Numbered from the stretch's first letter, positions 1,487 to 55,514 are shown. The stretch: DNA of 64,000 bases from Nannocystis radixulma (GCF_028369095.1 NZ_JAQNDN010000024.1:25350-89349); one strand, 5' to 3'. Translations and numbers: made by a program. The notes: a model not told the origin generated them from the sequence alone.

Positions 1487-1705
1487 GAGGACAGGCTGTC
1501 TTCGGGGACAGGTCGCCGTGGCCGGCGGTGGGGGACGAGCGACGAGGGCCGCGACGTTCGGCTCAAGCCGGCGACCTCGGGGACAGGCCGCTTCAACGGG
1601 TGAGGCCGTCGGCGCCGTTCAGCTCCGGTTGCTCGCTCGGGCAGGTGGCGGACGAGCGAAGGGACTCGCGACGTTCGGCTCCTGCCGGCGACGTCGGGAC
1701 AGGTC
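1487..1705. repeat. Intergenic tandem direct repeats. There are two copies of an about 47-bp unit (1531-1577 and 1647-1693, period about 116 bp). There are three TCGGGGACAGG boxes (1497, 1581, 1697). There is one TGTC-N6-GACA palindrome (1497-1510).
   Basis: Aligned by eye: GGACGAGCGACGAGGGCCGCGACGTTCGGCTCAAGCCGGCGAC versus GGACGAGCGAAGGGACTCGCGACGTTCGGCTCCTGCCGGCGAC. Confidence 0.7.
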
Positions 1706-1722
1706 ACTTCGGGTCCCGATGC

Positions 1723-3855
1723 TCAGCCGCGGTTCTTGCCGCTCGGGGGCGGTCCCTTGGGACTGGTGACAGGGTTCGTGCCGGCAGGAGGCTGGCCCTG
1801 CTGGGGCTTGGCGGCGGGCTGTCCCTTGGGACCAGGGGTGGGCGCCGCGTCGCCGGGCTGTCCCTTGGGACTGGTCGTGGGTTGACCCTGCTGGGGCTTG
1901 GCGGCGGGCTGTCCCTTGGGACTGGTCGCGGGAGTGGTACCGGCGGGGGGCTGGCCTTGCTGGGGCTTGCCTGGCTGTCCTTTGGGACTGGTGGCGTCGG
2001 GCTGTCCCTTGGGACTGGTGACGGGCTCGACGGGCTGGCCCCTGGTCTTGCCCTGGCCTTGCTGAGGCTTGGCGGGCTGTCCCTTGGGACTGGTCGGCGG
2101 CGCCAGCTCGGGCACGAGCTCCGGCTGGGGCTCCGGCTGGGGCTCGGGCACGGGCTCCTCGGCCGTCTCGGGCGCGGCGAGCTCGGGCTCGGGCGCGACG
2201 TAGGGCGCGGGGACGACGGGGAAGACCTTGCTCTCGCTGCCGAGCACGTGCTCGAGCAGGAGCGGCTCGCCGGTGGGCCGGCGGGCGCGGAGGACGACGA
2301 CGGCGCGCTCGCCGTCGCCGAGGCCGGTGGGGATCCCGGTGACGCGGTTGCGCTCGCCGGGGCGGAGGGTGATCTTGCGGACGATCGTGCGCGCGCCGGC
2401 GGCGTCCTGGCGCAGCACGAGGACGACGGCGTCGACGAGGCCGGGTGGGACCACGAAGTCGAGGTTGCCGGCGGTGGCGTCGAAGGTGAGCTCGGGCCAG
2501 GTCGGCCACAGCCAGTCGAGCAGCGAGCGCGTGACCTCGACCGCGCGGGGCGCCAGGTGGACGAACTGCTCGCGGTAGACGGCCTCGTCGATGTACGGGC
2601 GGACGCGGCCGTCGTCGTCGGTGTCGAAGGCGGCCAGCGGGCGGCCGGTGCCGCTCTGGATGTAGCCGCGCGCGGCCGGCCACGGGTGCATGCGGGCGCC
2701 CTGGAGCTCGACCGGGTCGAGGTGGCTGGCCTGCAGCAGCTCGGCGGCGGCGGCCTCGGGCGTGAGGTCGTCGTCGAGGTGGCGCGGCGCGGGGACGCTG
2801 GCCTCGGACAGGAACCGGCGCGCGGTGAACACCGCCAGGCCCTCGTAACCTGTCCCTTCGGGCATGACCAATGCGCCAGGGTCCTTGCTGGCCGGGGCGC
2901 CGCCGAACAGGTGCTCGGCGAGCGAGCCGGCGACCGGGATCCCGCGGGCGCGGGCGACCTCGTCCTGGGCGGGGCGGCCGGGCAGGGCGCTGCGGCCGAA
3001 CGCGAGCCGGGCCAGCTCGGCGAACGGCAGGCCGCGATCGCCGGGGCTCGGCGACAGCGGGCTGAAGAAGCCGGTGACGTCGCCGCGCGCGTGGGCGGGG
3101 ACGGCGAGGTCCTGGACGACGTGCAGCAGCGCGCCGAGGCCGACCAGCGCCAGCGCGAGGTGGTGCGCCCGCGCGTCCGCCTCGGGCAAGGTGGAGGCGA
3201 GCTCGAGGTGGCGCCACATGTGCGGCGGGGCCAGCGGGTCGGTGTCGTCGCGCAGGAACGAGATGACCGAAGGGCCCTGTCCCGAGAAACCTGTCTGCGT
3301 GGCCAGGGCCGCGGCCGAGCCGCCGTTGTGGCGGACCTGGCGCAGGCGCACCAGGCCGGGGCGCGGCTGCGGGTCGGAGAAGTTGGGCGCGAGCGGGTCG
3401 TCGCGGTCGACGAAGTGGTGGACGGCGCGGGCCGAGGGCACCAGCTCGGCGAGCACGCCGACCTGCAGCCACTGCAGCGCGGGCAGCTCCCACACGTCGC
3501 CGGCGACGCAGTACTTCTGGGTCTCGATCGGAGCGCCGAGGCCGGGGCAGGAGCCGGGGCCGCCGAGCGCCTGGAGGCCGCCGTGCTGTAGGGCGGCGGT
3601 GAGCATGCGCCGCTCGGGGGCGTTGAGCCGCCGGGGGTCGACGCGCAGGGGGGTGAAGAGGCCGCGCTGGAGCTCGCTCTGGGCCATCCAGCGCAGGTGC
3701 AGCGCGCTCTCCAGCAGGGCGCGGTCGACCATGCCGAGGTGGGTGGCGCGGGCGTCCCACGCGGCCGCCGGCGCGGCCGGGAGCGCGAGGGAGAGGGCGA
3801 GTCCGAGGCCGAGGGCGCGGCCGACCCGGCGGAGCCACGAGCGCGGGCGGGTCAC
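1723..3855 (-). CDS. Secreted zinc-dependent phospholipase C / S1-P1 nuclease-like hydrolase with a C-terminal Pro-rich 'TSPKGQP' repeat tail
   Basis: A GTG start at 3855 gives the signal peptide VTRPRSWLRRVGRALGLGLALSLALPAAPAAA|WDARATH. The mature N-terminal Trp with H(+7) and an IVNRAI-like 'MVDRAL' resemble the Zn-PLC/P1 nuclease N-terminus. The 3' 350 nt encode about 7 (T)SPKGQP(AKPQQGQ) repeats. Confidence 0.5.
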   Translation of the reverse strand: MTRPRSWLRRVGRALGLGLALSLALPAAPAAAWDARATHLGMVDRALLESALHLRWMAQSELQRGLFTPLRVDPRRLNAPERRMLTAALQHGGLQALGGPGSCPGLGAPIETQKYCVAGDVWELPALQWLQVGVLAELVPSARAVHHFVDRDDPLAPNFSDPQPRPGLVRLRQVRHNGGSAAALATQTGFSGQGPSVISFLRDDTDPLAPPHMWRHLELASTLPEADARAHHLALALVGLGALLHVVQDLAVPAHARGDVTGFFSPLSPSPGDRGLPFAELARLAFGRSALPGRPAQDEVARARGIPVAGSLAEHLFGGAPASKDPGALVMPEGTGYEGLAVFTARRFLSEASVPAPRHLDDDLTPEAAAAELLQASHLDPVELQGARMHPWPAARGYIQSGTGRPLAAFDTDDDGRVRPYIDEAVYREQFVHLAPRAVEVTRSLLDWLWPTWPELTFDATAGNLDFVVPPGLVDAVVLVLRQDAAGARTIVRKITLRPGERNRVTGIPTGLGDGERAVVVLRARRPTGEPLLLEHVLGSESKVFPVVPAPYVAPEPELAAPETAEEPVPEPQPEPQPELVPELAPPTSPKGQPAKPQQGQGKTRGQPVEPVTSPKGQPDATSPKGQPGKPQQGQPPAGTTPATSPKGQPAAKPQQGQPTTSPKGQPGDAAPTPGPKGQPAAKPQQGQPPAGTNPVTSPKGPPPSGKNRG
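1750..2100 (-). repeat. Coding tandem repeat. The near-palindromic GTCCCTTGGGACTGGT (read as TSPKGQ on the minus strand) occurs 7 times here and twice more at 3930-3985 in the neighbouring gene.
   Basis: Copies at about 1752, 1826, 1863, 1912, 1979, 2008 and 2083, plus 3933 and 3970. Confidence 0.75.
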
Positions 3856-5339
3856 GGGCGCCGGCCCTTCCCGGCCGGTTGGCCTGACTCTGGGGACATG
3901 GTCGAAGTGCCCTGGCCCTTGGGACTGGTGGTCGGACCTGACTCTGGGGACATGGTCGAATTGCCCTGTCCCTTGGGACTGGCGACGCCGGCGGGGTTGG
4001 TCGCGCCGCCGCTGCCGCTCGGGGCGGCGGTCTTGCCCGGCACGGTGCCGCCCGGGACGCCGGAGGGGGCCGGCGTGGTCCCGGTCGGCGTGGTCCCGGC
4101 GGGCGCGGTCGCGGCCGGATCGGGCACCTGCTTGAGGCGGTCGAGGTTGCGGTAGACGTGCTTGGCGAGGATCAGCGCGCTGTCGAGGTCGTGGCACTGC
4201 TGGTCGCCGCAGGTCAGCAGCACGCCGACCTTCTGCTCGCGGTCGACGAAGCCGATCGCGTGCACGCCGTCAGCGGTGGTGCTCCACGTCTCGGGGGTGA
4301 TGTCGCTGGCCGGCTTGACCTTGCCGAAGGTCTCCTGGATCGTCGCCGCGACCGGGTCCATGCCGCCGGGCGGGGCGCTCCACACCCGCAAGGCGAGGTC
4401 GTGACGCTCGTCGCTGCTGATCGCCTGCAGGTGGACGCCGTGGTAGAAGCCGGTGCGCTTGAGGTCGGTGAGGTCCTTGACCTCGAAGGCCTCGGTGTAG
4501 CCGGTGCGCTGGCGGACCTCGTCGGGGGTGAGCAGGGCGGTGGCGTCGAGCACCTCGGCGACCACCGGCCCGGCCGGCTTGCCGCCCTCCTCCTCTTCGA
4601 CCGCGACGACCGGACCGCCGGCGCCGCCGAGAGCGCGGAACAGGTCGAGGTTGGCGAGGTCGGCCTCCCAGCGCACGGCCTTGTGCAGCGGCCGCGGCGG
4701 CGCCAGGAACAACAGATGATCGGCGTGCGAGTCGCTGTTCTGCCACTTGCGCAGCTCGACGCGGTTGTGTCGCACGGTGAAGTCGGAGCGCGGGCCGCCG
4801 GTGGGGACGGCGTCGGAGCGGTAGCCGGCGTAGCCGCGCTTGTAGACGATGAGGTAGGCGTCGACGAGCCGCGCGGTCGAGCCGCGCACGCTGAGCCTGG
4901 CCGGAGGGATCCGGTAGCGGCCGGCGGCGTCGGTGGTGACGCTGGACGTTTCCGCGCCCCACGGGCCGATGAAGCCGTCGCCGCGGTCGTACGACCAGAC
5001 GGCGACGACGGTGGCCTCGGCGATCGGCTCGCTGGTGGCGGCGTCGACGACTTGGCCGTCGAAGGGGCCCAGCAACGAGGCGTCGGTGACGGTGTCGCGC
5101 GCGCCCACGAAGGCCGGCGGACGCACGATCGGGGCGCAGGCCACGAGCGTGGGCAGACACAGCGCGGCGACGGCGGCGAAGACGGCTCGCGCGAGCCGCC
5201 GCGCGGGCGAGGGAGGCGATCCGGCGCCACTACTCCGTGAGGTCCGTGAGGTCCGTGAGGACGAGTCGGGGCGGAGCAGCCACTGCGGTCCGTCGCGGTC
5301 GGGGCGGATGGACGAGGCGTCCACCCGTGACAGATCGCG
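3852..5339 (-). CDS. Secreted or lipoprotein-like protein with a carboxypeptidase-regulatory-like (CarboxypepD_reg) domain and a C-terminal 'SPKGQG…MSPESG' repeat tail. The start is uncertain (GTG at 5339 or 5324).
   Basis: Hydrophobic segment AVFAAVAALCLPTLVAC. The motif VVDAATSEPIAEATV…TDAAGRYRI is typical of the CarboxypepD_reg fold. The 5' 200 codons of the long ORF are Arg/Pro junk that overlaps the FHA gene, so I excluded them. Confidence 0.4.
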   Translation of the reverse strand, partial: RDLSRVDASSIRPDRDGPQWLLRPDSSSRTSRTSRSSGAGSPPSPARRLARAVFAAVAALCLPTLVACAPIVRPPAFVGARDTVTDASLLGPFDGQVVDAATSEPIAEATVVAVWSYDRGDGFIGPWGAETSSVTTDAAGRYRIPPARLSVRGSTARLVDAYLIVYKRGYAGYRSDAVPTGGPRSDFTVRHNRVELRKWQNSDSHADHLLFLAPPRPLHKAVRWEADLANLDLFRALGGAGGPVVAVEEEEGGKPAGPVVAEVLDATALLTPDEVRQRTGYTEAFEVKDLTDLKRTGFYHGVHLQAISSDERHDLALRVWSAPPGGMDPVAATIQETFGKVKPASDITPETWSTTADGVHAIGFVDREQKVGVLLTCGDQQCHDLDSALILAKHVYRNLDRLKQVPDPAATAPAGTTPTGTTPAPSGVPGGTVPGKTAAPSGSGGATNPAGVASPKGQGNSTMSPESGPTTSPKGQGTSTMSPESGQPAGKGRRP

Positions 5340-5539
5340 CACGAGCGAGGGCCACGCGGCACCCGTGGGCCCGGCAGACCCGGATTGCTCGGGCGCGGAG
5401 GGCGGCGGCGACGAGCCTGACTGTGCAATGGCGACGCTCAATTGACGCGGTCCGAGCCGGACGGGTACCCTGACGGGGCGAATCGCGGGCGAGCGCGGGT
5501 CTATCCCACGCGCGCGACCCTGGCAAGCCTTCTCCAGGC

Positions 5540-6904: not shown

Positions 6905-6905
6905 G

Positions 6906-7760: not shown

Positions 7761-7771
7761 CCGCGGCGTGC

Positions 7772-8242: not shown

Positions 8243-8246
8243 GCTG

Positions 8247-9236: not shown

Positions 9237-9252
9237 GGCGAGCGCGGGGACG

Positions 9253-9339
9253 CTGTCTTTCAGGACATGTTCAGAAAGAAGTGTTCAAAAGGACATGCTC
9301 GTTGCAGCATGCCCTTTTGAAAATGTCCTGGAGGACAGG
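9253..9339. repeat. Composite AT-rich palindromic element at a convergent gene junction. It has two TGTC-N6-GACA sites (9254-9267 and 9324-9337) flanking a hairpin (TTCAAAAGGACATGC / GCATGCCCTTTTGAA).
   Basis: The reverse complement of the element largely regenerates itself. Local GC is far below the genome average. Confidence 0.7.
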
Positions 9340-9343
9340 CGGA

Positions 9344-10399: not shown

Positions 10400-10450
10400 G
10401 CGGGCGCAGCCTAGCGCAGAAAGCCGCAGCCGCGCCTGCTTCCGACGGAC

Positions 10451-11694: not shown

Positions 11695-11759
11695 CAGCGC
11701 GTGGAGGCCCGCCGGAGCGCTGCGGCCCTCCTGGGTCGCGCGGCCGGTGCCGGTGGTGG

Positions 11760-19261: not shown

Positions 19262-20267
19262 GCGCTGCGGCGTCCTGCTGGTCGACAAGCCGGAGGGGCC
19301 GACCTCGCACGACGTGGTCGGCTTCGTCCGCTGGGTCCTGAACGAGAAGCAGGTCGGCCACTGCGGCACCCTCGACCCGCTCGCCTCGGGCCTGCTCGTC
19401 GTGTGCGTCGGCGGGGCGACGCGGCTCGTGCCGTACCTGAGCGCCGTCGACAAGGTCTACCGCGCGCGCTTCGGCCTCGGACGGGCGACGACCACGGCCG
19501 ATCGCGAGGGCGAGACGATCGCCGAGATCGCGGTCGCGCCGGCGCAGGTGGTCGCCGCGGGGGATGTCCTGAAGGACATGTGTGGTGCGCTCGAGCTGCC
19601 GCCGCCCGCGTACTCGGCGGTCAAACTCGAGGGTCGTCCGGCCCACGCCCGCGCCCGTCGCGGCGAGGTCCTGGCGCTGCCGCCGCGGCCGATGGAGTTG
19701 CGGTCCGCGACCGAGATCGAGGTCGGCGAGGACGCGATCGACGCCACCTGTGCCGTGAGCAAGGGCACCTATATTCGCAGCCTCGCGGAGGAGCTCGGTC
19801 GGCGCGTCGGACTGCCGGCGCATCTGGCGGCGTTGCGGCGCACCGCCTGCGGAAGTCTCGCGCTCGTCGACCCTCGCACCGTGCCCGTGGTCGTTTCCGC
19901 GCGTTTGCCGGATCTGGCCGGAGCGCCGCCCAAGTACCGCCTGGGCCTCGCCGGTGCCGAAGGTCGCGACGCCATGCGGGCCCGGCTCGAGGCGGCCTTG
20001 CTGGCGCCCGGGGAGGTGTTGCCGTTTCCGGTCCGCCGCCTCGACGAGGCCGAGGCCGACGCGTTCCGGGGCCTCCTGCACGGCCGTGGCGTCGACGCCG
20101 CTGCACTGCCGGCGGTCGCGCCGACCCTGGCCGAGGGTCAACACCCGGCGGCGAGGCAAGCGCTGTGGTTCCGCGACGCGCTGGTCGTGGTTCGTCTCGA
20201 CGGGCCGCTGTGGCGGCCGGAGAAAATGATCCATGCCGCGGCCGCCGCCCCTGTCACCCTGTCGTGA
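19248..20267 (+). CDS. truB: tRNA pseudouridine(55) synthase TruB
   Basis: GVLLVDKPEGPTSHDVV and HCGTLDPLASG catalytic motif. The GTG start overlaps the rbfA stop. Confidence 0.85.
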   Translation: MTQAERCGVLLVDKPEGPTSHDVVGFVRWVLNEKQVGHCGTLDPLASGLLVVCVGGATRLVPYLSAVDKVYRARFGLGRATTTADREGETIAEIAVAPAQVVAAGDVLKDMCGALELPPPAYSAVKLEGRPAHARARRGEVLALPPRPMELRSATEIEVGEDAIDATCAVSKGTYIRSLAEELGRRVGLPAHLAALRRTACGSLALVDPRTVPVVVSARLPDLAGAPPKYRLGLAGAEGRDAMRARLEAALLAPGEVLPFPVRRLDEAEADAFRGLLHGRGVDAAALPAVAPTLAEGQHPAARQALWFRDALVVVRLDGPLWRPEKMIHAAAAAPVTLS

Positions 20268-29097: not shown

Positions 29098-31148
29098 GTC
29101 GCAACGCCGCCCGCCCCGCCGCGCCGCCCAGGGCGGAGGCTCCCCCGAGCCTCCACTGGCAGATCGCGTGGCGGCACCTGCGGGCCGGCGATCGCCCGCC
29201 GAGCTGGGCCTGGCCGGCCGTCGGCCTCGCCGTCTATCTCCTGATCGTCGGCGGCGGCTTCGTGCTGTACGCCCTCTACGGCTTCGCCCCGGTCGATCCG
29301 AGCCTGCCCGAGCGCGTCGCGCTCGACTCGAGCCTCGTCGGCCTCGGCTTCGACCCGACGTTGCACCTGCCGCCGCCGGCGCAGGCGTACTTCGGGGTCC
29401 TCGGCGCGATCACGCTGTTGCTCGGCGCGGGCCTGTTGCTCGGCGCCGTGCTGTCGCTGGTGTTCACGCTGCTGGCCACCGTCATCACCGTCAGCGTCAT
29501 GCTCGGCTGCATGGCGCTGGTCGTCGTGCTCAGCCTGATGACCGGCCTCGAGCTCGAGCTGCGCGACAAGATCCTCGGCCAGCGCGCGCACATCCGCGTC
29601 AGCGCGGCCGACGGGCGCCCCTTCGCCGACTACCGCGACCTCGCCCACGCGATCGCCGACAAACCCGGGATCCTCGGCGCCAGCCCCTACCTGCAGGGCG
29701 AGGTGATGGTCCGCAGCGGCTTCCAGCGCCAGGGCGGGATCCTCCTCGGCATCGACCCCGAGCTGCACCGCAGTGTGTCGAACCTGCCCGACATCATGCG
29801 CGAGGGCGACTACGAGTTCCTCTCGCACCCCGAGCGGATCCCCGAGTCGGAGTTCGGCTTCGACATCACGCCGGTCGAGCCGCCGAAGAGCGACGAGCCG
29901 GACGCGGCCCCCGACGACAAGGGCGGCGGCGCCACGGGTCTGCCTCTTCCGACAGGTTCTGAAGACCATGTCCCCGAGGACATCCCGAGCCAGGCCGTCG
30001 ACGACGACCCCGACGGGGGCTGGGAGGACCCCGAGGTCGAGATCCCGGCGCTGCGCAAGAAGGGCGTGATCCCGGCGGCCAAGCCGGCGATCGAGGACAA
30101 GCCGACCGCCGTCCCGACCTCGCCGGCCACCGCGATCCCGACCATCCCGCGCAGCCCGTTCGGCGTGGTCGCCAGCGGCGACGAGGACGAGGGCTGGGAG
30201 GACCCGGAGGTCGAGATCGGCAAGCTGCGCGCGTCCGGCAAGTTGCCGCCGCCGCCGAAGCCGAGCGAGGAGACGCCTCCGCCGCCGCCGGAGCCCGCGG
30301 TCGACGTCGACACCGAGGAACCGGGGTCGAGCCGCGCGCTGGTCGACGGCCTCTTGATCGGCAGCGAGAAGGCCAAGGAGCTGGCGGCGCGCACCGGCGA
30401 CCAGGTCCAACTGATCACCCCGATCGGGCGCATGACCCCCGCCGGCCGGATCCCCGGCGTCATGGCCGTGCGCGTCGCCGGGGTGTTCGACGCCGATCAC
30501 TACGACTACGACCGCTGGCTCGTGTACGCCTCGCTGCCGGTGGCCCAGGCGTTCCTGCGCGCCGGCGACCGCGTCACCGGCATCGAGGTCAAGGTCGACG
30601 ACATCGAGCAGCTCGACGTGCGCAAGCAGGCGGTTCAGGACGCGGTCGACGCCGCAGGGCGCAGCGACCTCATCGTCCAGGACTGGCAGGAGCTGAACCG
30701 CAGCCTGTTCTCGGCGATGGCGCTCGAGAAGATCGCCGTGTTCGTCGCGTTGCTGTGCGTCATCCTGGTCGCCTCGTTCGGGATCCTCGGCTCCAACCTC
30801 ATGAGCGTGCTCGAGAAGTCGAAGGAGATAGCGATCCTCAAGACGATGGGCTGCACCGACGCTCTCATCCAGCGGATCTTCATCTCCGAGGGCCTGTGCC
30901 TCGGGATCCTCGGCGGGATCCTCGGCATCGTCACCGGCATCGGCCTGTGCGGCCTCCTCGACCGCTTTGGCCTGCCGCTCGGCGGCACGCTGCAGAGCTT
31001 CGAGCAGCTGCCCGTCTTCATCGACGGGTTCGAGGTCGTCCTGGTCGGCGTGTCGTCGCTCGTCATCGTCTGGCTGTCGAGCCTCTACCCGGCGCGGATC
31101 GCCTCGCGCATGCGCCCGGTCGACGCCCTCCGGCAGGCGGAGCGATGA
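29094..31148 (+). CDS. LolC/E-family (FtsX-like) ABC transporter permease with an expanded periplasmic region containing a duplicated acidic 'GGWEDPEVEIP' repeat
   Basis: WRHLRAG N-terminus, a MacB-like periplasmic domain and a C-terminal FtsX 4-TM bundle. The GTG start overlaps the prfB stop. Confidence 0.75.
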   Translation: MSRNAARPAAPPRAEAPPSLHWQIAWRHLRAGDRPPSWAWPAVGLAVYLLIVGGGFVLYALYGFAPVDPSLPERVALDSSLVGLGFDPTLHLPPPAQAYFGVLGAITLLLGAGLLLGAVLSLVFTLLATVITVSVMLGCMALVVVLSLMTGLELELRDKILGQRAHIRVSAADGRPFADYRDLAHAIADKPGILGASPYLQGEVMVRSGFQRQGGILLGIDPELHRSVSNLPDIMREGDYEFLSHPERIPESEFGFDITPVEPPKSDEPDAAPDDKGGGATGLPLPTGSEDHVPEDIPSQAVDDDPDGGWEDPEVEIPALRKKGVIPAAKPAIEDKPTAVPTSPATAIPTIPRSPFGVVASGDEDEGWEDPEVEIGKLRASGKLPPPPKPSEETPPPPPEPAVDVDTEEPGSSRALVDGLLIGSEKAKELAARTGDQVQLITPIGRMTPAGRIPGVMAVRVAGVFDADHYDYDRWLVYASLPVAQAFLRAGDRVTGIEVKVDDIEQLDVRKQAVQDAVDAAGRSDLIVQDWQELNRSLFSAMALEKIAVFVALLCVILVASFGILGSNLMSVLEKSKEIAILKTMGCTDALIQRIFISEGLCLGILGGILGIVTGIGLCGLLDRFGLPLGGTLQSFEQLPVFIDGFEVVLVGVSSLVIVWLSSLYPARIASRMRPVDALRQAER

Positions 31149-33898: not shown

Positions 33899-36517
33899 GT
33901 GCACCTCGTCCGTCGCGGCGCCTCGCTGGCGCGCGCGCTGACTCTGCTGGCCTGCGCGCTGGTCTGTCTGTTCGGACAGGTCGCTGCCGCGCGCCCGAGC
34001 ATGGCCGAGATCGGCATGGACATGTTCTTCCGCGCCGCGGCCGCCGGCGTGCCGCAGGAGCTGTACGGTCAGCCGATCGTCGACATCCGCTTCGAGGGCA
34101 ACCGCCGCGTCGAGAGCGAGGCGATGATGCTCGAGCTCGAGAGCCACATCGACGCGGTCGTCAACCCGCGCAACCTGGCGACCGACATCAAGCGGCTGTG
34201 GGGCCTCGGCAAGTTCGACGACATCCGCATCGAGGGCGAGCTGACGCCGTCGGGCGTGGTCCTGACCTACATCGTCAAGGAGCGGCCGACGATCCGGAAG
34301 ATCGTCGTCGAGGGCAACAGCAAGATCAAGCTCGACGACATCAACGAGCAGCTCGACCTCAAGCTCAACGCGATCCTCGACGTCGGCGCGGTCCGGGCCA
34401 ACGTCGAGAAGGTCAAGCAGCTCTACGTCGAGAAGGGCTTCTTCCTCGCCGAGGTCACCTACGGCCTGCGCGCGGTCGAGGACGAGATCGGCAAGGTCGA
34501 CATCCAGATCGTGATCAGCGAGGCGGCCGAGACGATCGTCCGCAAGATCACGTTCATCGGCAACCAAGCGTTCACCGACGACGAGCTGCGCAAGCACATG
34601 ATCACGCGCGTCGGCGGTTACCTCAGCGTCGTCACGAAGAAGGCCGGCGGCGTCTTCAACAAGGAGGCGTTCGCCGGCGACTTCCAGATGTTGAAGCAGT
34701 TCTACACCGACAACGGCTACCTCGACGCCAACGTCAAGGACCCGGAGCTGAGCCTCAGCCCCGACCGTCGGTTCGTCTACGTCACCGTCCCGGTCGACGA
34801 GGGCCCGCAGTACCGCGTCGGCAAGATCCGCGCGAAGGAGGTCCTCGGGCGCGGCGAGAAGGCGCTCTACAACGAGAACATCCTGGCCGACTCGATCAAC
34901 CCCGTCATCAAGGAGGGCGACGTCGCCTCGATGGGGAAGATCCAGACGATCATCCAGGACATCGAGCGCCGCTACAAGGACGCCGGTCACGCCTACGTCA
35001 ACGTCATCCCCGACGGCCGCCAGGACCGCGAGAACCTCAAGCTCTACATGACGCTCGAGGTCGGCAAGGGCCCGCTCGTCTACATCGAGCGCATCAACAT
35101 CAGCGGCAACGACAAGACCGCCGACAAGGTCATCCGCCGCGAGATGGCGCTGCGCGAGGGCGACCTCTACTCCGAGAGCGGCAAGGAGCAGTCCGAGTTC
35201 AACGCGATGCGGCTCGGCTACTTCAACCAGGTCACGATCTCGACCAGCAAGGGCAGCGCCGAGGACAAGATCGTCCTCAACGTCGAGGTAACCGAGCGCC
35301 TGACCGGCACGTTCCAGGTCGGCGCTGGCTTCAGCACGATCGAGAACTTCGTGCTGCAGGCGCAGATCCAGTACGACAACTTCCTCGGCCGCGGCACCAC
35401 GGTGACCCTCGTGGCCCAGATGTCGAGCCTGCGGCGCCTGTTCAACCTCGCCTACATCACGCGCTACTTCCTCGACTCGCGCTGGAACTTCTCGTTCAAC
35501 ATCTTCAACTCGCGCAACGTGTTCCCCGGGTTCTCGCGCGAGAGCACCGGCGTGCGCCTGTCGTGGGGTTACCCGATCCCGCGCGTGCCCAACCTGATCC
35601 TGTTCGCCGGTTACTCGTTCGAGTACATCAAGGTCGGCTTCGGCAACTTCGGCTCGTTCGGCGGCGTCGGCGGCATCGGCGGCGCCGGCCTGTTCGGCGG
35701 CGGCGCCTACTCGACGCTCTACAGCGGCTCGGCGCTGATCTCGAACCTGTTCAACAACGGCATCACCTCGGCGATCACGGCCAGCCTCCGCTACGACACG
35801 ACCGACAACTACCTGTTCCCGACCGAGGGCATGCGGCACGAGATCCGGGCCGAGTTCGCCAACAAGTACTGGGGCTCGCAGAACCGGTTCAACCGCTACG
35901 ACGCGAACTTCCGCTTCTACTTCCCGATCATCCGCAGCAAGCAGGCGTTCCGGGCCTGGCTCGTGTTCAAGACCCGCCTGCAGGTCGGCTTCATCCATAG
36001 CCCGCAGGACAAGGGCGTGCCGGTGTTCGAGCGCTACTTCCCCGGCGGTATCTTCGGCGACGGCGGTATCCGCGGCTACCGTCTGCGCAGCCTTGGTCCG
36101 GCGATCAAGGTGCTCGGCAGCTCCGACCCGACGGCGACCCTGATCCCGTACACGATCGGCGGCAACCTGCTCACGGCGCTCAACCTCGAGCTCGAGTTCA
36201 TGATGGTCCCGCCCGCCAACATCAAGGGCGTGGTCTTCATGGACATCGGCAACGCCTACAACACCGAGCCGCTGTACTGCGTCGAGGCCAACCCGGTCGA
36301 GCAGCCGAAGAGCGACCCGTGCACGCTGCTGCGCCCCGGCGCGCCCGGCTTCCTCAAGTCGCTGCGCCGCTCGATCGGCTTCGGCTTCCGCTGGCAGTCG
36401 CCGATCGGTCCGCTGCGGTTCGAGTGGGGCTTCCCGCTCGACCGTCTGCCTCCGACCGAGTTCTATTACGGCGACGAACCGGTGGTGTTCGAGTTCAACG
36501 TCGGCAACAGCTTCTGA
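33899..36517 (+). CDS. bamA: Outer membrane protein assembly factor BamA (Omp85)
   Basis: Signal peptide, POTRA repeats, and a C-terminal β-barrel ending …VVFEFNVGNSF. An alternative GTG at 33851 overlaps the lolD stop. Confidence 0.85.
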   Translation: MHLVRRGASLARALTLLACALVCLFGQVAAARPSMAEIGMDMFFRAAAAGVPQELYGQPIVDIRFEGNRRVESEAMMLELESHIDAVVNPRNLATDIKRLWGLGKFDDIRIEGELTPSGVVLTYIVKERPTIRKIVVEGNSKIKLDDINEQLDLKLNAILDVGAVRANVEKVKQLYVEKGFFLAEVTYGLRAVEDEIGKVDIQIVISEAAETIVRKITFIGNQAFTDDELRKHMITRVGGYLSVVTKKAGGVFNKEAFAGDFQMLKQFYTDNGYLDANVKDPELSLSPDRRFVYVTVPVDEGPQYRVGKIRAKEVLGRGEKALYNENILADSINPVIKEGDVASMGKIQTIIQDIERRYKDAGHAYVNVIPDGRQDRENLKLYMTLEVGKGPLVYIERINISGNDKTADKVIRREMALREGDLYSESGKEQSEFNAMRLGYFNQVTISTSKGSAEDKIVLNVEVTERLTGTFQVGAGFSTIENFVLQAQIQYDNFLGRGTTVTLVAQMSSLRRLFNLAYITRYFLDSRWNFSFNIFNSRNVFPGFSRESTGVRLSWGYPIPRVPNLILFAGYSFEYIKVGFGNFGSFGGVGGIGGAGLFGGGAYSTLYSGSALISNLFNNGITSAITASLRYDTTDNYLFPTEGMRHEIRAEFANKYWGSQNRFNRYDANFRFYFPIIRSKQAFRAWLVFKTRLQVGFIHSPQDKGVPVFERYFPGGIFGDGGIRGYRLRSLGPAIKVLGSSDPTATLIPYTIGGNLLTALNLELEFMMVPPANIKGVVFMDIGNAYNTEPLYCVEANPVEQPKSDPCTLLRPGAPGFLKSLRRSIGFGFRWQSPIGPLRFEWGFPLDRLPPTEFYYGDEPVVFEFNVGNSF

Positions 36518-37263: not shown

Positions 37264-37827
37264 ATGCCCACCCCCCAGCGTCGTCTCGGTCGTCTGCTCT
37301 CCGCCGCCGCCGTCGCGCTCGCCTTCGCGGGCAGCGCCGGCCTCGCCCCCAGCTTCGTCACGCCCGCCCAGGCCACTATCCCGCAGGTCCGCGGCGTCGC
37401 CGTCGTCGACATGCAAAAGGTCCTCGCCGACACCAAGCAGGGCCAGGCCGCGCGCAAGAAGCTCGAGGACAGCTCCAAGGCCAAGCAGGAGAAGCTCGAG
37501 CAGAAGCGCAAGAAGCTCGAGGCCGACACCGGCAAGCTGAAGAGCCTGCAAGGCGAGAAGCTCGCCGCCGCGGAGGAGGCGCTGCAGAAGGAGTACATGG
37601 AGATGCAGCAGATCTACATGACCATGCAGCAGGAGCTCACGCAGCAGGAGTCGCGTGTCCTCGAGGACATCTACAAGAACTGCCAGACGATCATCGACAA
37701 GCTGGCCGCCGAGAAGAACGTCGACCTGGTGCTGATCCGCGACGACTCGACCGTGCTGTTCGTCGAGCCCGGACTCGACATCACGACCGAGCTCGTCAAG
37801 CGCTACAACGCCAAGTACCCGTCCTAG
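37264..37827 (+). CDS. Second OmpH/Skp-family chaperone paralog
   Basis: Similar architecture to the first skp (signal peptide plus K/E/Q-rich coiled coil). Confidence 0.75.
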   Translation: MPTPQRRLGRLLSAAAVALAFAGSAGLAPSFVTPAQATIPQVRGVAVVDMQKVLADTKQGQAARKKLEDSSKAKQEKLEQKRKKLEADTGKLKSLQGEKLAAAEEALQKEYMEMQQIYMTMQQELTQQESRVLEDIYKNCQTIIDKLAAEKNVDLVLIRDDSTVLFVEPGLDITTELVKRYNAKYPS

Positions 37828-44162: not shown

Positions 44163-45518
<1,356 letters not shown>

Positions 45519-45525
45519 CTGTCCG

Positions 45526-45580
45526 CCCGGGCATGTTCAAAAGAGCATGCCCGGGAGGGCATGCTCCTTGGAGCATGTCT
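45526..45580. repeat. Two overlapping hairpins after glmM (CCCGGGCATG-N10-CATGCCCGGG; GGCATGCTCC-tt-GGAGCATGtC). Likely a bidirectional terminator / palindromic element of the same family.
   Basis: Perfect 10-bp stem. Shares the GTTCAAAAGRGCATGC module with the 9253-9339 element. Confidence 0.65.
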
Positions 45581-45620
45581 GAACGTGCTCACTCGCGCGT
45601 GCGCCGGCACGGGCGAGCGC

Positions 45621-46979: not shown

Positions 46980-47010
46980 CGTGATGTCTCCGGGAAGTTG
47001 GGGTGGTGGT

Positions 47011-49146: not shown

Positions 49147-49310
49147 TCAGGCCTCGATGCGCCACGGCCCGCCGGCTGTCAACTGACTCCGAAAGGCCGC
49201 AGCGGTGTCGTCACGACTCGCGCGCGATCGCGTGGCGAAGGCCCCGGGGGCGCCTGATCGATGGGTCGGCCTTGCACGGGTACGGGGCGCGCGAGTACCT
49301 TTGAAAGCCT

Positions 49311-50363: not shown

Positions 50364-50380
50364 GTTCGTATCCAATCTAT

Positions 50381-50422
50381 GTCTTTATGGACATGCCTCT
50401 TGAGGCATGCTCATAAAGACAG
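50381..50422. repeat. 20-bp-stem hairpin element (TGTCTTTATGGACATGCCTC-ttga-GAGGCATGCTCATAAAGACA) containing TGTC-N6-GACA
   Basis: Convergent junction between the 49311 gene and the DUF423 gene. The same TGTCTTT…GGACATG module appears at 9254. Confidence 0.65.
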
Positions 50423-50611
50423 AACGTAGCTGCCGCTTCCGTCGGTGGACTGATTCTCCGTGCGGCGACAAGCGGGGTCGGCGACGCTCGTCGCAGGCGG
50501 GCACGGAGCGGCGGAATCGGACGCAGGCGGGACGGAGCCGCAGTTCATTCCGCCGCTCCGTGCCCGCCGTCACCCAGGTCTTCCGGGCCCCGCGCCTTCG
50601 ACCGAGAACAC

Positions 50612-51552: not shown

Positions 51553-51574
51553 GCCTGGTAGGCTACCACGCACC

Positions 51575-52939: not shown

Positions 52940-52983
52940 GGTCGGCGCGGGCTTGCGCGAAGCGGCCTGCCGATCGGACCCGA

Positions 52984-53080
52984 GGGACAGGTCGACGGAG
53001 CTGTCCGAAGGGACACTTTATTTTCGGGGCATGGACATCGGCACTAGGAGACAGGTCGATCGACCTGTCCGAAGAGACAC
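52984..53080. repeat. Two direct copies of an about 33-bp unit. Each contains a GACAGGTCGA…CTGTC palindrome and a TGTCCGAAGRGACAC site. GACAGGTCGATCGACCTGTC at 53050-53069 is a perfect 20-bp palindrome.
   Basis: Located after the rarA stop, at a convergent junction with the FAD-oxidoreductase gene. Confidence 0.7.
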
Positions 53081-53090
53081 CCCGGCGGTC

Positions 53091-54443
53091 CTACGCCAGC
53101 AGGCGGCCGGCGAGGTCCTGGCACTGCGGGGCCAGCTCGAGCACCGCGGTCGTCTCCCACAGCTGCGGCCGGCGCAGGTTGCCGACGGCGTGCAGCCAGG
53201 TCGAGGCGCGGCCGTTGGCGTCGAGCAGCGCGGCGTCGTCGTCGACTGCGGCGCCGAGCGGGTCGGGCACCAGCAGGCCGCGCGCCATCAGGCGGTCGAG
53301 CAGAGGATCGCCGGCGGCGCGGGGATCGGTCGCCGGACCGGTCGCGTTGAGCATGGCGTCGACGCGCAGGTGGCGGCAGGGTCCGCCGTTGCGCGGCCGG
53401 ATCGTCGCCAGGATCGAGTCTGTCCCGAAAGACAGATCGTCGAGCCGGCCGGCGTGGACCTGCAGGCGGCCCGAGGCGCGCAGAGCGGCGATCGCCGCGG
53501 CGGTGGCCGGGGCGGCGCGGTGGCGGTGGATCTCCCAGTACACACGCAGGTGGAGGACGAAGCGCTCGCGCTCGGCGACGGGCCAGCGGCGCCAGATCGC
53601 CTGCGTCACCGGGCGCAGGTCGGCGACGACGTCGCGCCAGTCGCCGCCGCGGGCCACCTCCTCGCGCACGGCGGCCCGCAGCGCGTGCAGGGCCCCGCGC
53701 GCGCTCGCGGGCCAGCGCTCGATCGCCGGCGGGTGCGGCTCGGGCGGACGCCCCGGGACGCGGTGGGCGTGCGGCAGCAGGCCGTGGCGCGACAGCAGGT
53801 GGATCGGTCCGCGGTGGCCGGCGCCGTCCAGGCCGAGCGCGAGGTCGAGCGCGGACAGACCTGTCCCGAAGACCAGCACGCTCGCGTCGGGCACGGGGGC
53901 CGGGGCCGGGGCCGACCATGGGTCGTGGACGTAGCGCGGCTCGGCGCGCACCGCCTCGCCCAGGCCCGCGGGCAGGCGCGGCGCGAAGTTGCCGACGGCG
54001 AGGACGACGTGGTCGGCGGTGACGTGGGTGCCGTCGGCCAGCGCGAGCGCGGCGGGTCGGTCGGCCGCGGGGGGGCGGGCGTCGATGACCTGGCCCGTGA
54101 GACATGTGATGGCCTCGCCACCGGCGACCAGCAGCGCGCGCAGGTAGTCGCCGTAGAGGCCGCGCGGCAGGAAGCTGCCCCCGTTCACGCCGGGGTCGCG
54201 GGCGCGGGCCCAGCGGACGAAGTGCTCCGGGTCGTCGGGGAGGGCGCTCATCCGCCCCGCCGGGGTGTTGAGCAGGTGGCGCGGGTCGGCTGTCCGATAG
54301 GCCAGGCCGGGGCCGAACTCGCCGCGCGCGTCGATCACCGTCACGCGCGGGTGGACGGGCGAGCGCGCGAGGTGGTGGGCGAGGGCGACGCCGCAGAAGC
54401 CCGCGCCGACGACGGCGATGGTGGGCGCAGACGCGGACGGCAC
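53091..54443 (-). CDS. FAD/NAD(P)-binding oxidoreductase (FAD-NAD(P)-binding domain family)
   Basis: N-terminal IAVVGAGFCG dinucleotide motif and a second VLVFGTGLSALD motif. Confidence 0.65.
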   Translation of the reverse strand: MPSASAPTIAVVGAGFCGVALAHHLARSPVHPRVTVIDARGEFGPGLAYRTADPRHLLNTPAGRMSALPDDPEHFVRWARARDPGVNGGSFLPRGLYGDYLRALLVAGGEAITCLTGQVIDARPPAADRPAALALADGTHVTADHVVLAVGNFAPRLPAGLGEAVRAEPRYVHDPWSAPAPAPVPDASVLVFGTGLSALDLALGLDGAGHRGPIHLLSRHGLLPHAHRVPGRPPEPHPPAIERWPASARGALHALRAAVREEVARGGDWRDVVADLRPVTQAIWRRWPVAERERFVLHLRVYWEIHRHRAAPATAAAIAALRASGRLQVHAGRLDDLSFGTDSILATIRPRNGGPCRHLRVDAMLNATGPATDPRAAGDPLLDRLMARGLLVPDPLGAAVDDDAALLDANGRASTWLHAVGNLRRPQLWETTAVLELAPQCQDLAGRLLA

Positions 54444-54752
54444 GCCTCAGCCTAGTGCCCGGCGCCGGCGGCTTCAACGGGTCCGGCCCGGGCGCGCGGA
54501 CTTCCGGGCGCTCGTCGCCTCGGCCATCGCTGCGCGCGGAGCCACGAGCGGCGAGGCTGGCCGGCCCGTCGGGCCCGCATGGCCACGGACGGCGAGTTCA
54601 GTGAGCCTTCCATGTCCCCCGGTCGCCCTCGCACGCCGGCGCCTGCCTCGCGCCCGGGCGGTGGTCGGATCCGGCGCGAGGCAAGAGATCGAACATCCCG
54701 CCCGCGGCACTCGCCAGGTGACAAGCGCGGGCGCCGATGCTATCCGCGCGGC

Positions 54753-55487
54753 ATGGCCGCCCGCCTCAGCGTCAACGTCAACAAGGTCGCCACCCTCCGC
54801 AACGCCCGCGGCGGCGACGTCCCGAGTGTGATCGAGGCGGTGCGGACGATCATCGCGGCCGGCGCGCCGGGCATCACCGTGCACCCGCGGGCCGACGAGC
54901 GCCACATCCGGGCCGCCGACGCGCGGGCGATCGCGGCCGAGCTGGCGCCGCTGCGCGATCGCGTCGAGTTCAACATCGAGGGCGACCCGCGGTCCGACCT
55001 GCTGGCGATGGTCGAGGAGCTGCGGCCGCACCAGTGCACCCTCGTGCCGGTGCGGCCGGGCGAGATCACGAGCCAGGCCGGGTGGCCGCCCGACACCTCG
55101 CGCGCCGAGCTCGGGGCGATCGTGACCCGGCTGCACAGGCTCGGGGTGCGGGTCTCGCTGTTCATCGACGCCGACCCCGCCGCGGTGCGCTGGGCCGCCG
55201 ACGTCGGCGCGCAGCGCATCGAGCTGTACACCGAGCCGTACGCGCGGGCCTACGCGGCCGGCGCGGGCGAGGCCTCGCTGGCGCAGTTCGCCGCCGCGGC
55301 CTCGCTGGCGCACTCGCTCGGGCTCGGCGTCAACGCCGGTCACGACCTCGACCTCGACAACCTGCCGCTGTTCAGCCGCCTGCCGCACCTCGACGAGGTC
55401 TCGATCGGCCACGCGCTCATCAGCCACGCGCTGTTCGTCGGGCTCGCGCGGGCCGTCGCCGACTACCTCGCCGCGCTGTCCGAATAG
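54753..55487 (+). CDS. pdxJ: Pyridoxine 5'-phosphate synthase
   Basis: LSVNVNKVATLRNARGG N-terminus and full-length PdxJ similarity. Confidence 0.9.
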   Translation: MAARLSVNVNKVATLRNARGGDVPSVIEAVRTIIAAGAPGITVHPRADERHIRAADARAIAAELAPLRDRVEFNIEGDPRSDLLAMVEELRPHQCTLVPVRPGEITSQAGWPPDTSRAELGAIVTRLHRLGVRVSLFIDADPAAVRWAADVGAQRIELYTEPYARAYAAGAGEASLAQFAAAASLAHSLGLGVNAGHDLDLDNLPLFSRLPHLDEVSIGHALISHALFVGLARAVADYLAALSE

Positions 55488-55488
55488 C

Positions 55489-55514
55489 CATGTCTTGAGA
55501 GACATGTCCGGACA
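55489..55514. repeat. Back-to-back perfect palindromes CATGTCTTGAGAGACATG and TGTCCGGACA immediately after pdxJ
   Basis: Read directly from the sequence. Intergenic between pdxJ and bfd. Confidence 0.7.

What the first reader, a model, noticed from the sequence alone, without database searches (positions are those of the whole stretch)
1487..55514. Strongly over-represented 14-bp palindrome TGTCY-N4-RGACA (TGTC-N6-GACA) scattered through intergenic and coding DNA
By eye I find at least 11 sites with exact TGTC-N6-GACA geometry: 1497-1510, 9254-9267, 9324-9337, 19565-19578 (inside truB), 29969-29982 (inside lolE paralog 1), 33965-33978 (bamA signal peptide), 50381-50394, 53002-53015, 53066-53079, 53421-53434 (inside the FAD oxidoreductase), 55491-55504. 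Close relatives include GACATGTC (10761), TGTCCGGACA (55505), GGACAGacCTGTCC (53853) and GGACAGgCTGTC (1488). Most have pyrimidine/purine at the inner flanks, and several extend to aTGTCC…GGACAt. At about 70 % GC and assuming independent bases, I roughly expect under one TGTC-N6-GACA per 64 kb (0.15²·0.35² per half-site). That is a rough estimate, not a computation. The geometry (5-bp half-sites, 4-6-bp spacer, two-fold symmetry) matches a dimeric HTH factor of the CRP/FNR or GntR type. However, many copies sit inside ORFs encoded with rare AT-rich codons, and many form parts of larger hairpin elements. Those features fit a selfish or structural repeat better than a promoter operator. I could not match it to LexA, parS, MrpC (GTGTC-N8-GACAC) or any described site.
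Basis: seen in the sequence. Interest (0 to 1): 0.85.

Follow-up and report, generated by a model that had tools for sequence, protein, structure and literature searches.

The report
Nannocystis dispersed palindromic repeat family
The 14-bp palindrome TGTCY-N4-RGACA is real and about 100-fold over-represented, and it is the core of an undescribed REP-like repeat family in Nannocystis that fills gaps between convergent genes and is also conserved inside some essential genes.

Summary
The window, from Nannocystis radixulma, has 13 exact TGTCY-N4-RGACA sites against 0.03-0.09 expected. Only spacer 6 of TGTC-Nx-GACA is enriched, and unbiased scans recover the motif as the top outlier.

It is not a promoter operator. 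Eight sites lie in the 13% of DNA that is intergenic. Every convergent (3'-3') gap examined carries at least one copy (5 independent loci), no true divergent gap does, and few tandem gaps do. Copy number varies between species (2, 5 and 7 perfect copies in one gap). The gaps fold into unusually stable long hairpins built from a GGRCATGYCC / GACCTGTCC module. The best terminator-like hairpin coincides with one element.

Five copies sit in genes (truB, lolE-like, bamA, skp, an FAD oxidoreductase) against 0.6 expected under synonymous shuffling. They use rare codons and are conserved in orthologues more than matched controls.

Density is 0.13-0.47 per kb in seven named Nannocystis genomes and 0.28-0.98 per kb in some uncultured relatives. 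It is near zero in other Nannocystaceae-like MAGs and in Enhygromyxa.

Best reading: a lineage-specific REP-like element, probably protein-recognised, acting as a bidirectional transcript-end structure. The partner protein is unknown. I found no literature describing it.

The parts
7..20 (.). Perfect site TGTCTCAAGAGACA overlapping the stop codon of the minus-strand gene 11-1333. In relatives this gap is convergent, with an HTTM-family gene to the left.
1488..1518 (.). Three half-sites, GGACAG-g-CTGTC-ttcggg-GACAGGTCG, including perfect site 1497-1510. Lies in a tandem gap downstream of the repeat-protein gene 1723-3855; orthologous gaps hold 3-4 perfect sites in two species.
9251..9341 (.). 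Composite long hairpin in the convergent gap between the epimerase gene and gene 9344-10399. Perfect sites 9254-9267 and 9324-9337 pair with each other. The inner hairpin 9284-9321 (degenerate unit at 9282-9295) is flanked by A/T tracts and looks like a bidirectional terminator.
   Evidence: (z -5.0)
19565..19578 (.). Coding copy in truB (GAT GTC CTG AAG GAC ATG), conserved in N. exedens, RBIL2 and N. bainbridge.
29969..29982 (.). Coding copy in the lolE-like permease gene 29094-31148 (CAT GTC CCC GAG GAC ATC), conserved in strain ILAH1.
33965..33978 (.). Coding copy in bamA at codons 23-27 (TGT CTG TTC GGA CAG; rare TGT and GGA). Kept in ILAH1 through a Phe-to-Val change.
37656..37669 (.). 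Coding copy in the second skp/ompH gene (CGT GTC CTC GAG GAC ATC). Deeper relatives have CGC, and therefore no site.
45520..45590 (.). Convergent gap with two strong hairpins built from degenerate modules (GGGCATGTTC..GAGCATGCCC, GGGCATGCTC..GAGCATGTCT). Includes the one-mismatch site 45520-45533, starting two bases after a stop codon.
   Evidence: (z -6.1)
50380..50421 (.). Inverted doublet hairpin TGTCTTTATGGACATGCCTC-ttga-GGCATGCTCATAAAGACA, 16 nt after a stop codon in a convergent gap. Absent from the 36-bp orthologous gap of N. punicea.
   Evidence: (z -3.7)
52982..53080 (.). Two roughly 35-nt units 64 bp apart (GRGACAGGTCGAYSGASC-TGTCCGAAGRGACA-C) in the convergent mgsA / FAD-oxidoreductase gap, with perfect sites 53002-53015 and 53066-53079. 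Site 53002 is followed by a T-rich tail. N. punicea has 5 perfect copies and N. pusilla 7 (plus degenerate ones) in the same gap.
53421..53434 (.). Coding copy in the FAD oxidoreductase gene (minus strand: CTG TCT TTC GGG ACA; rare TCT and ACA). Conserved in three species, with changes only at degenerate positions.
54091..54104 (.). Decayed coding copy TGGCCCGTGAGACA. The orthologous position is a perfect site in N. punicea and N. pusilla.
55477..55518 (.). Cluster starting 3 nt after the pdxJ stop: perfect site 55491-55504 abutted by degenerate copies (GACATGTC junction, TGTCCGGACA). In relatives the neighbouring abutting site is the perfect one.
1752..2091 (-). Near-copies (AGTCCCAAGGGACA on the coding strand, one mismatch) repeated in the repeat-protein gene 1723-3855. 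They encode S-P-K-G-Q with rare AGT and GGA codons and are kept in four species. More near-copies lie at 3885-3980.

Best explanation
The 14-mer is the conserved core of a lineage-specific family of short palindromic repeats, comparable to REP/BIME/REPIN elements of proteobacteria. The building block is a half-site module, RGACAK, extended to GGACATG(C) or GGACAGG(TCG). It is used mainly as an inverted pair with a 4-nt centre. It also occurs as abutting pairs (GACATGTC), as inverted doublets that fold into long hairpins, and as tandem arrays with 32-65 bp periods. Copies accumulate where transcription units end, above all between convergent genes. There the clusters form very stable stem-loops that most likely serve as bidirectional transcript-end structures (termination or 3'-end protection). 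Shown: the over-representation, the location bias, the structures, the copy-number turnover, the taxonomic restriction, and the constraint on coding copies. Inferred: the core is kept constant because a protein recognises it (a transposase-like or other dimeric DNA-binding protein), new copies arise by local duplication and perhaps transposition, and the hairpins act on transcripts.
For: Enrichment and strict geometry. Eight of 13 sites lie in 8.3 kb of intergenic DNA. All 10 convergent gaps (5 independent loci) carry at least one copy with one mismatch or fewer, with 17 perfect sites in 2.35 kb. True divergent gaps have none, and 4 of 55 tandem gaps have one. Half-site words are the most intergenic-enriched k-mers, e.g. 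GGACATGC 12 vs 0.09. Convergent gaps fold far better than shuffles: median z about -3.7, 11 of 15 below -2.5, against no divergent gap below -2.1. The modules form the stems. The best terminator-like hairpin in 1-20 kb is the element at 9284-9321, and site 53002 has a T-rich tail. Orthologous gaps are unalignable but hold 2, 5 and 7 perfect copies, and one gap has the element in two species and not in a third. Other gaps show the same turnover. Distribution is lineage-restricted and patchy. Coding copies occur in all three frames, often as 33-bp tandem units in Pro/Ser-rich linkers, sharing the flank CGACC-TGTCC, which indicates a DNA element and not a peptide motif. In the T6SS loci the flank is asymmetric and 18:1 co-oriented with transcription, resembling the conserved 5' tetranucleotide plus hairpin layout of REPs. 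REPIN features for comparison come from PMC3116915.
Against: The 14-mer alone is only a 4-6 bp stem. Mirrored positions 5/10 show no covariation (18 Watson-Crick pairs vs 18.2 expected), and outer flanks are often not complementary, so pairing of the 14-mer itself is not what is conserved. Only 8-10 positions are conserved, with variable centre and flanks, which is less than a typical 20-35 nt REP. Five copies lie inside genes, arose by point substitution and are under constraint, which classical REPs do not show. No RAYT-like gene was found in 468 kb of motif-bearing sequence, though that sample is far too small to exclude one. Two of four intergenic elements in the window are not significantly structured. 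Whole-genome counts could not be made.
Confidence: 0.5

Rival explanations
1. A selection-maintained duplex-DNA site, like cyanobacterial HIP1. A dedicated homodimeric DNA-binding protein reads TGTCY-N4-RGACA across the chromosome. Sites are placed where coding constraints allow and where binding does no harm. The function would be at chromosome level, for example insulating convergent transcription units by roadblock, marking topological boundaries, or nucleoid structuring. The hairpins would be a by-product of clustered palindromes.
For: The eight core positions are invariant while the centre and flanks drift. Y5 and R10 vary independently, as expected for half-site recognition and not for pairing. 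Spacing is strict. In N. punicea, sites are conserved islands in otherwise unrelated, unalignable spacer sequence. Coding copies exceed the synonymous-shuffle null (5 vs 0.6), use rare codons, and are conserved in 9 of 9 orthologue comparisons against 22-80% for controls, which is the same argument made for HIP1 (PMC5861425). The same palindrome geometry is evidently read by proteins elsewhere: tandem sites next to NtrC-family activator genes, iterons in phage replication genes, and dispersed TGTCCAATTGGACA in a viral contig.
Against: It does not by itself explain tandem arrays with duplicated spacers, inverted doublets with shared mismatches, presence/absence differences between species, or the asymmetric, transcription-co-oriented flank in the T6SS loci. 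No candidate protein was identified.
Confidence: 0.25
2. Ordinary intrinsic, bidirectional terminator hairpins. Their similarity would reflect only local duplication and common descent, with no dedicated protein and no mobility.
For: The sites are at 3' ends and convergent gaps, and the gaps are strongly structured. Two elements meet a hairpin-plus-T-tract scan.
Against: Unrelated loci and species share the same 8-10 nt core, although a terminator needs only a stable stem. Most copies lack a T tract. Coding copies are conserved. The core persists where the surrounding gap is unalignable.
Confidence: 0.1
3. Operator or enhancer sites of a conventional regulator (CRP/FNR, GntR, or an NtrC-family sigma-54 activator) controlling a large regulon.
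For: Dyad symmetry. Arrays in N. pusilla have a 32-33 bp period, matching the 33-34 bp spacing of the activator-associated site pairs in other bacteria.
Against: There are no sites in divergent promoter gaps. Density is about 0.2-0.5 per kb. The geometry differs from the CRP/FNR 5-N6-5 layout (established knowledge). Sigma-54 promoter-like sequences are not enriched (34 vs 56 expected) and none flanks a cluster. The window's own activator has a different recognition helix.
Confidence: 0.05
4. A by-product of codon usage, a recurrent peptide motif, or chance.
For: Three coding copies share the frame NNT GTC CNN NAG GAC ANN (V-L/P-E/K-D), built mostly from common codons. GTCC-N4-GGAC in deeper relatives is mostly tandem peptide repeats.
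Against: Most copies are intergenic. Synonymous shuffling expects 0.6 coding copies against 5 observed. Coding copies occur in all three frames. Composition-matched nulls give 0.03-0.09.
Confidence: 0.01

Closest known systems
REP / BIME / REPIN elements of gamma- and beta-proteobacteria (mobilised by RAYT transposases)
   Same: Short, GC-rich, palindromic and highly over-represented. Mostly extragenic at 3' ends. Occur as singlets, inverted doublets forming long hairpins, and higher-order clusters. Copy number varies between relatives and families are lineage-specific (REPIN paper PMC3116915). In some lineages there is an asymmetric conserved 5' flank next to the palindrome.
   Different: The conserved core is only 8-10 nt with a free 4-nt centre. 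There is no GTAG-type tetranucleotide. Copies inside essential genes are conserved under constraint. No RAYT was found, though the sample was inadequate. Found in Myxococcota, where I found no description.
HIP1 (GCGATCGC), the highly iterated palindrome of cyanobacteria
   Same: A palindrome over-represented by one to two orders of magnitude, present in coding and non-coding DNA, and conserved between orthologues more than controls, which implies selection. Function unresolved (PMC5861425).
   Different: HIP1 is a contiguous 8-mer at about one per gene, with no strong intergenic or convergent-gap bias and no arrays or hairpin doublets. It is linked to specific methyltransferases (PMC4390886, abstract seen). 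Here the site is bipartite, 14 bp, about 11-fold denser in intergenic DNA, and clustered.
Rickettsia palindromic elements (RPE) inserted in-frame in protein genes (from my own knowledge, not checked here)
   Same: A palindromic repeat family that also occurs inside coding sequences and is translated in different frames in different proteins.
   Different: RPEs are about 100-150 bp insertions. Here several coding copies arose by point substitution without indels, and units are 14-33 bp.
Tandem upstream activator sites of NtrC-family sigma-54 activators, and lambda-type origin iterons
   Same: Exactly the same palindrome geometry (G)TGTCC-N4-GGACA(C) occurs as pairs 33-34 bp apart next to activator genes. 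TGTCCC-N2-GGGACA occurs as 22-23 bp arrays inside DUF1376 replication genes of phages. Dimeric DNA-binding proteins can therefore read it.
   Different: Those are one pair or one array per locus in a defined regulatory position. The Nannocystis copies are dispersed at 0.1-0.5 per kb, avoid promoter gaps, and show no sigma-54 promoters nearby.

Membership tests
REP/REPIN | Short sequence highly over-represented in the genome | tested here: met
   13 vs 0.03-0.09 expected in the window, with similar densities in 6 other named Nannocystis genomes and in independent T6SS loci. A whole-genome count was not possible.
REP/REPIN | Confined to extragenic space | tested here: not met
   Eight of 13 sites are intergenic (about 11-fold denser than in coding DNA), but 5 lie in genes, exceed the synonymous-shuffle null and are conserved.
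REP/REPIN | Palindromic, forming stable hairpins; inverted doublets as the unit | tested here: inconclusive
   Doublet hairpins are clear at 9251-9341 and 50380-50421, and convergent gaps are strongly structured. However, the 14-mer alone is a weak stem with no covariation at positions 5/10, and two elements are not significantly structured.
REP/REPIN | Associated single-copy RAYT (Y1 transposase) flanked by the repeats | not testable with these tools
   A phmmer probe with an E. coli RayT sequence recalled from memory found nothing in 468 kb of motif-bearing loci. Complete genomes could not be searched.
HIP1-like iterated palindrome | Hyper-abundant in both coding and non-coding DNA | tested here: inconclusive
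   Present in both, but with a strong bias to intergenic and convergent gaps, unlike HIP1.
HIP1-like iterated palindrome | Sites conserved between orthologues more than matched controls | tested here: met
   9 of 9 site-orthologue comparisons are conserved against 22-80% of same-phase control windows. Using one comparison per site, joint P is about 0.007. One decayed site at 54091.
HIP1-like iterated palindrome | Cognate DNA methyltransferases recognising the motif | not testable with these tools
   No methylome data and no genome-wide gene inventory available.
CRP/FNR-type operator | 16-bp 5-N6-5 dyad located in promoter regions | tested here: not met
   The geometry is 5-N4-5 and only spacer 6 of TGTC-Nx-GACA is enriched, not spacer 8. 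No sites lie in divergent promoter gaps.
NtrC-family activator UAS | Tandem dyads upstream of a sigma-54 (GG-N10-GC) promoter | tested here: not met
   Array periods of 32-33 bp fit, but sigma-54 promoter-like sequences are not enriched and none is adjacent. Sites lie at gene 3' ends.
Intrinsic terminator | GC-rich hairpin followed by a U tract at a gene 3' end | tested here: inconclusive
   Met by 9284-9321 (on the minus strand in the scan, and by eye on both strands) and by 53002. Most copies have no T tract.
DNA uptake sequence (DUS/USS) | A single non-palindromic 9-12-mer over-represented on its own | tested here: not met
   Half-sites alone are barely enriched genome-wide (TGTCC 48 vs 34, GGACA 71 vs 51). 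The excess is in the pair at fixed spacing.

The most novel reading that the evidence does not exclude
Nannocystis and some relatives use a dedicated sequence-specific protein that reads TGTCY-N4-RGACA on duplex DNA, or on its hairpin form. The protein would mark and insulate the ends of transcription units, as a protein-dependent bidirectional terminator or boundary system. Additional sites would be kept by selection inside genes, making this a HIP1-like genome-wide signal whose function can be read from its position.
Probability: 0.17. Interest if true: 0.8.

Novelty: new variant of a known kind. Interest (0 to 1): 0.52.

Why it matters
Short dispersed palindromes such as REPs and HIP1 are among the least understood features of bacterial genomes. 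I found no description of one in myxobacteria, whose 10-13 Mb genomes are mined heavily for natural products. This family combines two properties that are usually separate: REP-like clustering at transcript ends, and HIP1-like selective retention inside genes. Its position is also unusually informative, because every convergent gene gap sampled carries it. That makes its function directly testable by 3'-end RNA mapping and by pulling down the binding protein. If the elements do end or insulate transcripts, they would be practical parts for engineering Nannocystis and would improve operon and terminator annotation in these GC-rich genomes, where canonical terminators are scarce.

Tried and rejected
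- **CRP/FNR or GntR operator:** wrong geometry, and absent from promoter gaps.
- **LexA:** the C...G flavour coincides with CTGT-N8-ACAG (5 vs 0.37). Density, 3' location and the GC-rich spacer do not fit an SOS box (established knowledge).
- **Sigma-54 enhancer:** no sigma-54 promoters nearby.
- **Peptide motif, codon bias or chance:** rejected by the synonymous shuffle and by use of all three frames.
- **CRISPR-like array:** in N. pusilla the 'spacers' are duplicates of each other, and spacing is irregular elsewhere.
- **Known RNA family:** Rfam finds nothing in the window.
- **RNA pairing at positions 5/10:** no covariation. My hand tally of wobble versus mismatch on the sense strand was about even.
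- **Closeness to stop codons:** several sites lie 2-17 nt after a stop, but a within-gap placement test is only marginal (Fisher P = 0.04), so I do not rely on it.
- **RAYT search:** nothing found in 468 kb, which is uninformative.
- **Recurrent neighbour gene next to arrays in Nannocystis-like contigs:** none found. The search instead uncovered an unrelated activator-UAS locus.
- **Gene-context statistics on the metagenome contigs:** abandoned, because my GC3-based caller is unreliable on very GC-rich arrays and the sample is biased towards arrays.
- **GTCC-N4-GGAC enrichment in deeper relatives:** mostly tandem peptide repeats, so not counted as the same element.
- **Literature:** no description found.


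Full report

Yes. TGTC-N6-GACA occurs 13 times in the window. All 13 fit the stricter TGTCY-N4-RGACA, against 0.09 expected from dinucleotide shuffles and 0.03 from a Markov-3 model. Sites at 7-20 and 37656-37669 were missed.

The signal is specific to this geometry. Across spacers 0-20 only spacer 6 is enriched (13 vs 0.55). The reverse order GACA-Nx-TGTC is at background, and half-sites alone are hardly enriched. With one mismatch allowed there are 40 sites against 4.3 expected. An unbiased scan of every 4-Nx-4 palindrome ranks GTCC-N4-GGAC, TGTC-N6-GACA, CATG-N10-CATG and CTGT-N8-ACAG at or near the top. These are all registers of one extended palindrome.

**2. Where is it from, and how widespread is it?**

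BamA encoded in the window is 100% identical to that of Nannocystis radixulma.

| Group | Strict-motif density |
|---|---|
| Seven named Nannocystis genomes (radixulma, punicea, pusilla, exedens, bainbridge, RBIL2, ILAH1) | 0.13-0.47 per kb |
| Uncultured relatives, including an independent type VI secretion locus unrelated to the window | 0.28-0.98 per kb |
| MAGs with BamA 67-87% identical, and Enhygromyxa salina | 0-0.04 per kb |

About 1.25 Mb from 78 other loci contain no strict site and 20 loose ones, which is roughly what base composition predicts by my estimate. The family is lineage-restricted and patchy.

**3. Anatomy**

A symmetrised matrix of 30 sites extends the palindrome to R-C-M-TGTC-Y-N4-R-GACA-K-G-Y. 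There are two flavours: CATGTCY...RGACATG, and (GAC)CTGTCY...RGACAG(GTC). Half-site words are the most intergenic-enriched k-mers, for example GGACATGC at 12 vs 0.09, GGGACA at 37 vs 5.7 and GGACAGG at 28 vs 5.0.

The module is used in several ways:
- as 4-nt-spaced inverted pairs;
- as abutting pairs (GACATGTC);
- as inverted doublets;
- as tandem arrays.

Mirrored positions 5/10 do not covary (18 Watson-Crick pairs vs 18.2 expected) and outer flanks are often non-complementary. So pairing within the 14-mer is not what is conserved. The pattern looks like recognition of two RGACAK half-sites.

**4. Position relative to genes**

I called 48 genes with a GC3-based method; they agree with public annotation of orthologous loci. 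Eight sites lie in the 8.3 kb of intergenic DNA and five in 55.7 kb of coding DNA.

Across the window and three Nannocystis relatives:
- All 10 convergent gaps (5 independent loci) have at least one copy with one mismatch or fewer, giving 17 perfect sites in 2.35 kb.
- True divergent gaps have none. The two sites listed for L001 lie in a gene that my caller truncated.
- Only 4 of 55 tandem gaps have one.

Loci from N. exedens, RBIL2 and N. bainbridge repeat the pattern, and they show that site 7 also lies in a convergent gap. Several sites lie 2-17 nt after stop codons, but a placement test within gaps is only marginal (P = 0.04).

**5. Structure**

The gap 9237-9343 folds into a long hairpin in which the two perfect sites pair with each other around an inner hairpin (z = -5.0). 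The region 50364-50450 is an inverted doublet (z = -3.7). The regions 52940-53090 and 55480-55560 are not significantly structured.

Over 15 convergent gaps the median z is about -3.7, with 11 below -2.5. No divergent gap is below -2.1, and tandem gaps are mostly near zero. The stems are made of the module. Canonical terminators are scarce. The best one in 1-20 kb is the inner hairpin 9284-9321, and site 53002 has a T-rich tail. Rfam finds nothing in the window.

**6. Evolutionary behaviour**

Coding regions align at 82-92% between species, but the motif-bearing gaps do not align. The mgsA / FAD-oxidoreductase gap has 2, 5 and 7 perfect copies in three species. In N. pusilla these are a 32-33 bp tandem array, while in N. 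punicea they are islands in unrelated sequence. Another gap has a doublet in the window, a different arrangement in N. pusilla, and nothing in a 36-bp gap in N. punicea. After pdxJ, two abutting sites exist and different species keep different ones perfect.

**7. Coding copies**

Five coding copies are observed against 0.60 expected under synonymous shuffling (0 of 500 shuffles reach 5). They use rare codons: TGT 21 vs TGC 216, GGA 52 of 1674 Gly codons, TCT, ACA and CAT. They arose by substitution without indels. For example, the skp site exists because Nannocystis has CGT where deeper relatives have CGC.

All 9 site-orthologue comparisons are conserved, against 22-80% of same-phase control windows. 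Using one comparison per site, the joint P is about 0.007. One site, at 54091, has decayed in the window.

Across all loci, coding copies occur in all three frames, giving V-P/L-x-D, L-S-x-G-T and C-P-S-G-Q/H. They are often 33-bp tandem units in Pro/Ser-rich linkers and share the flank CGACC-TGTCC. This points to a DNA-level element and not a peptide motif.

In the T6SS loci the flank is asymmetric (ACC-TGTCC...GGACA-KCC) and 18:1 co-oriented with the genes. In Nannocystis proper most sites have no such asymmetry. This difference is unexplained.

**8. What reads such a palindrome elsewhere?**

The metagenome and viral scans turned up three unrelated uses of the same geometry:
- Pairs of G-TGTCC-N4-GGACA-C, 33-34 bp apart, just downstream of NtrC-family sigma-54 activator genes and upstream of a TPR-protein gene. 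This is a classical tandem activator site.
- Arrays of TGTCCC-N2-GGGACA with a 22-23 bp period inside DUF1376 replication-initiator genes of phages, like lambda ori iterons.
- A viral contig with TGTCCAWWTGGACA dispersed about once per kb.

These show that dimeric DNA-binding proteins read this geometry. The Nannocystis copies, however, avoid promoter gaps and have no sigma-54 promoters nearby.

**9. Interpretation**

The most economical account is a lineage-specific REP-like family. Its conserved core is probably a protein-recognition site, and its clusters at convergent gene ends act as bidirectional transcript-end structures. I give this 0.5.

The main rival (0.25) is a HIP1-like, selection-maintained duplex site for a chromosome-level protein. 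It explains the invariant core and the constrained coding copies better. It explains the arrays, the doublets, the presence/absence differences and the asymmetric flanks worse. The two accounts are not exclusive, because REPs are themselves bound by proteins.

Plain terminators (0.1), a conventional operator or enhancer (0.05) and artefact (0.01) are less likely.

Membership in REP/REPIN cannot be claimed. The 'extragenic only' feature is not met and the RAYT association could not be tested.

I found no description of this motif or of REP-like elements in myxobacteria. Comparators are cited from PMC3116915 and PMC5861425.

Noticed in passing
L085, L098, L122, L148, L152, L159, L187, L198 (e.g. 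L122 558-604; L098 1756-1803): Eight metagenome contigs carry a pair of G-TGTCC-N4-GGACA-C sites, mostly 33-34 bp apart. The pair lies just after the stop of an NtrC-family sigma-54 activator gene (REC, AAA+ and HTH_8 domains) and about 170-200 bp upstream of a TPR-protein gene. This looks like a classical tandem upstream activator site using the same palindrome.
   Followed up: partly
L220 4706-4811, L315 2328-2559, L268, L254, L247 and about 15 other viral loci: Viral contigs of about 65% GC have 3-8 copies of TGTCCC-N2-GGGACA at a 22-23 bp period. In 13 loci the array lies inside a DUF1376 (YdaU-like) gene. L315 also has a DnaA-box-like TGTGGATAA next to the array. This resembles lambda ori iterons inside the initiator gene.
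   Followed up: partly
L212 1963-9736: A 57% GC viral contig has 11 copies of TGTCCAWWTGGACA scattered over 10 kb, where about 0.04 would be expected. Some sit inside larger inverted repeats. This is a dispersed phage motif with the same geometry.
   Followed up: no
window 1752-2091, 3885-3980; L325 18581-18831; L326 18816-18952; L327 18438-18676: Two adjacent Nannocystis-specific repeat-protein genes carry tandem near-motif palindromes. Examples are AGTCCCAAGGGACA, encoding S-P-K-G-Q at a 45-bp period, and GACCATGTCCTCCGAGACA at a period of about 90 bp. They use rare AGT, GGA and ACA codons and are conserved in four species.
   Followed up: partly
L328 12139, L329 12244, L330 12679: A motif copy sits at about codon 24 of tssM (icmF) in three lineages whose TssK is 55-87% identical to the L154 query (P-H/Y-V-S/P-K-D, with rare CAT/TAT, TCA and AAA codons). 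This is comparable to the copy at codon 23 of bamA in the window. Copies near annotated 5' ends of genes may be a recurrent feature, or the start codons may be mis-called.
   Followed up: no
window 57495, 58078 and intergenic regions of L001/L002: A second intergenic-enriched word family, GGCGAATG/CATTCGCC (12 vs 0.26 expected across four loci), lies near the tandem DUF4215 paralogues. It is unrelated to the palindrome.
   Followed up: no
window 49338-50363, 58256-59812, 60389-61921, 62122-63864: There are four DUF4215 cysteine-rich repeat protein genes, three of them tandem paralogues about 77-81% identical at DNA level. The paralogue number differs between Nannocystis species.
   Followed up: no
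L325 15001-16629: The N. exedens annotation calls a 542-aa minus-strand ORF where RBIL2, N. bainbridge and the window have a plus-sense homologue of window gene 3852-5144 (sense relative to its neighbours). This is probably a wrong-strand call in GC-rich DNA.
   Followed up: no
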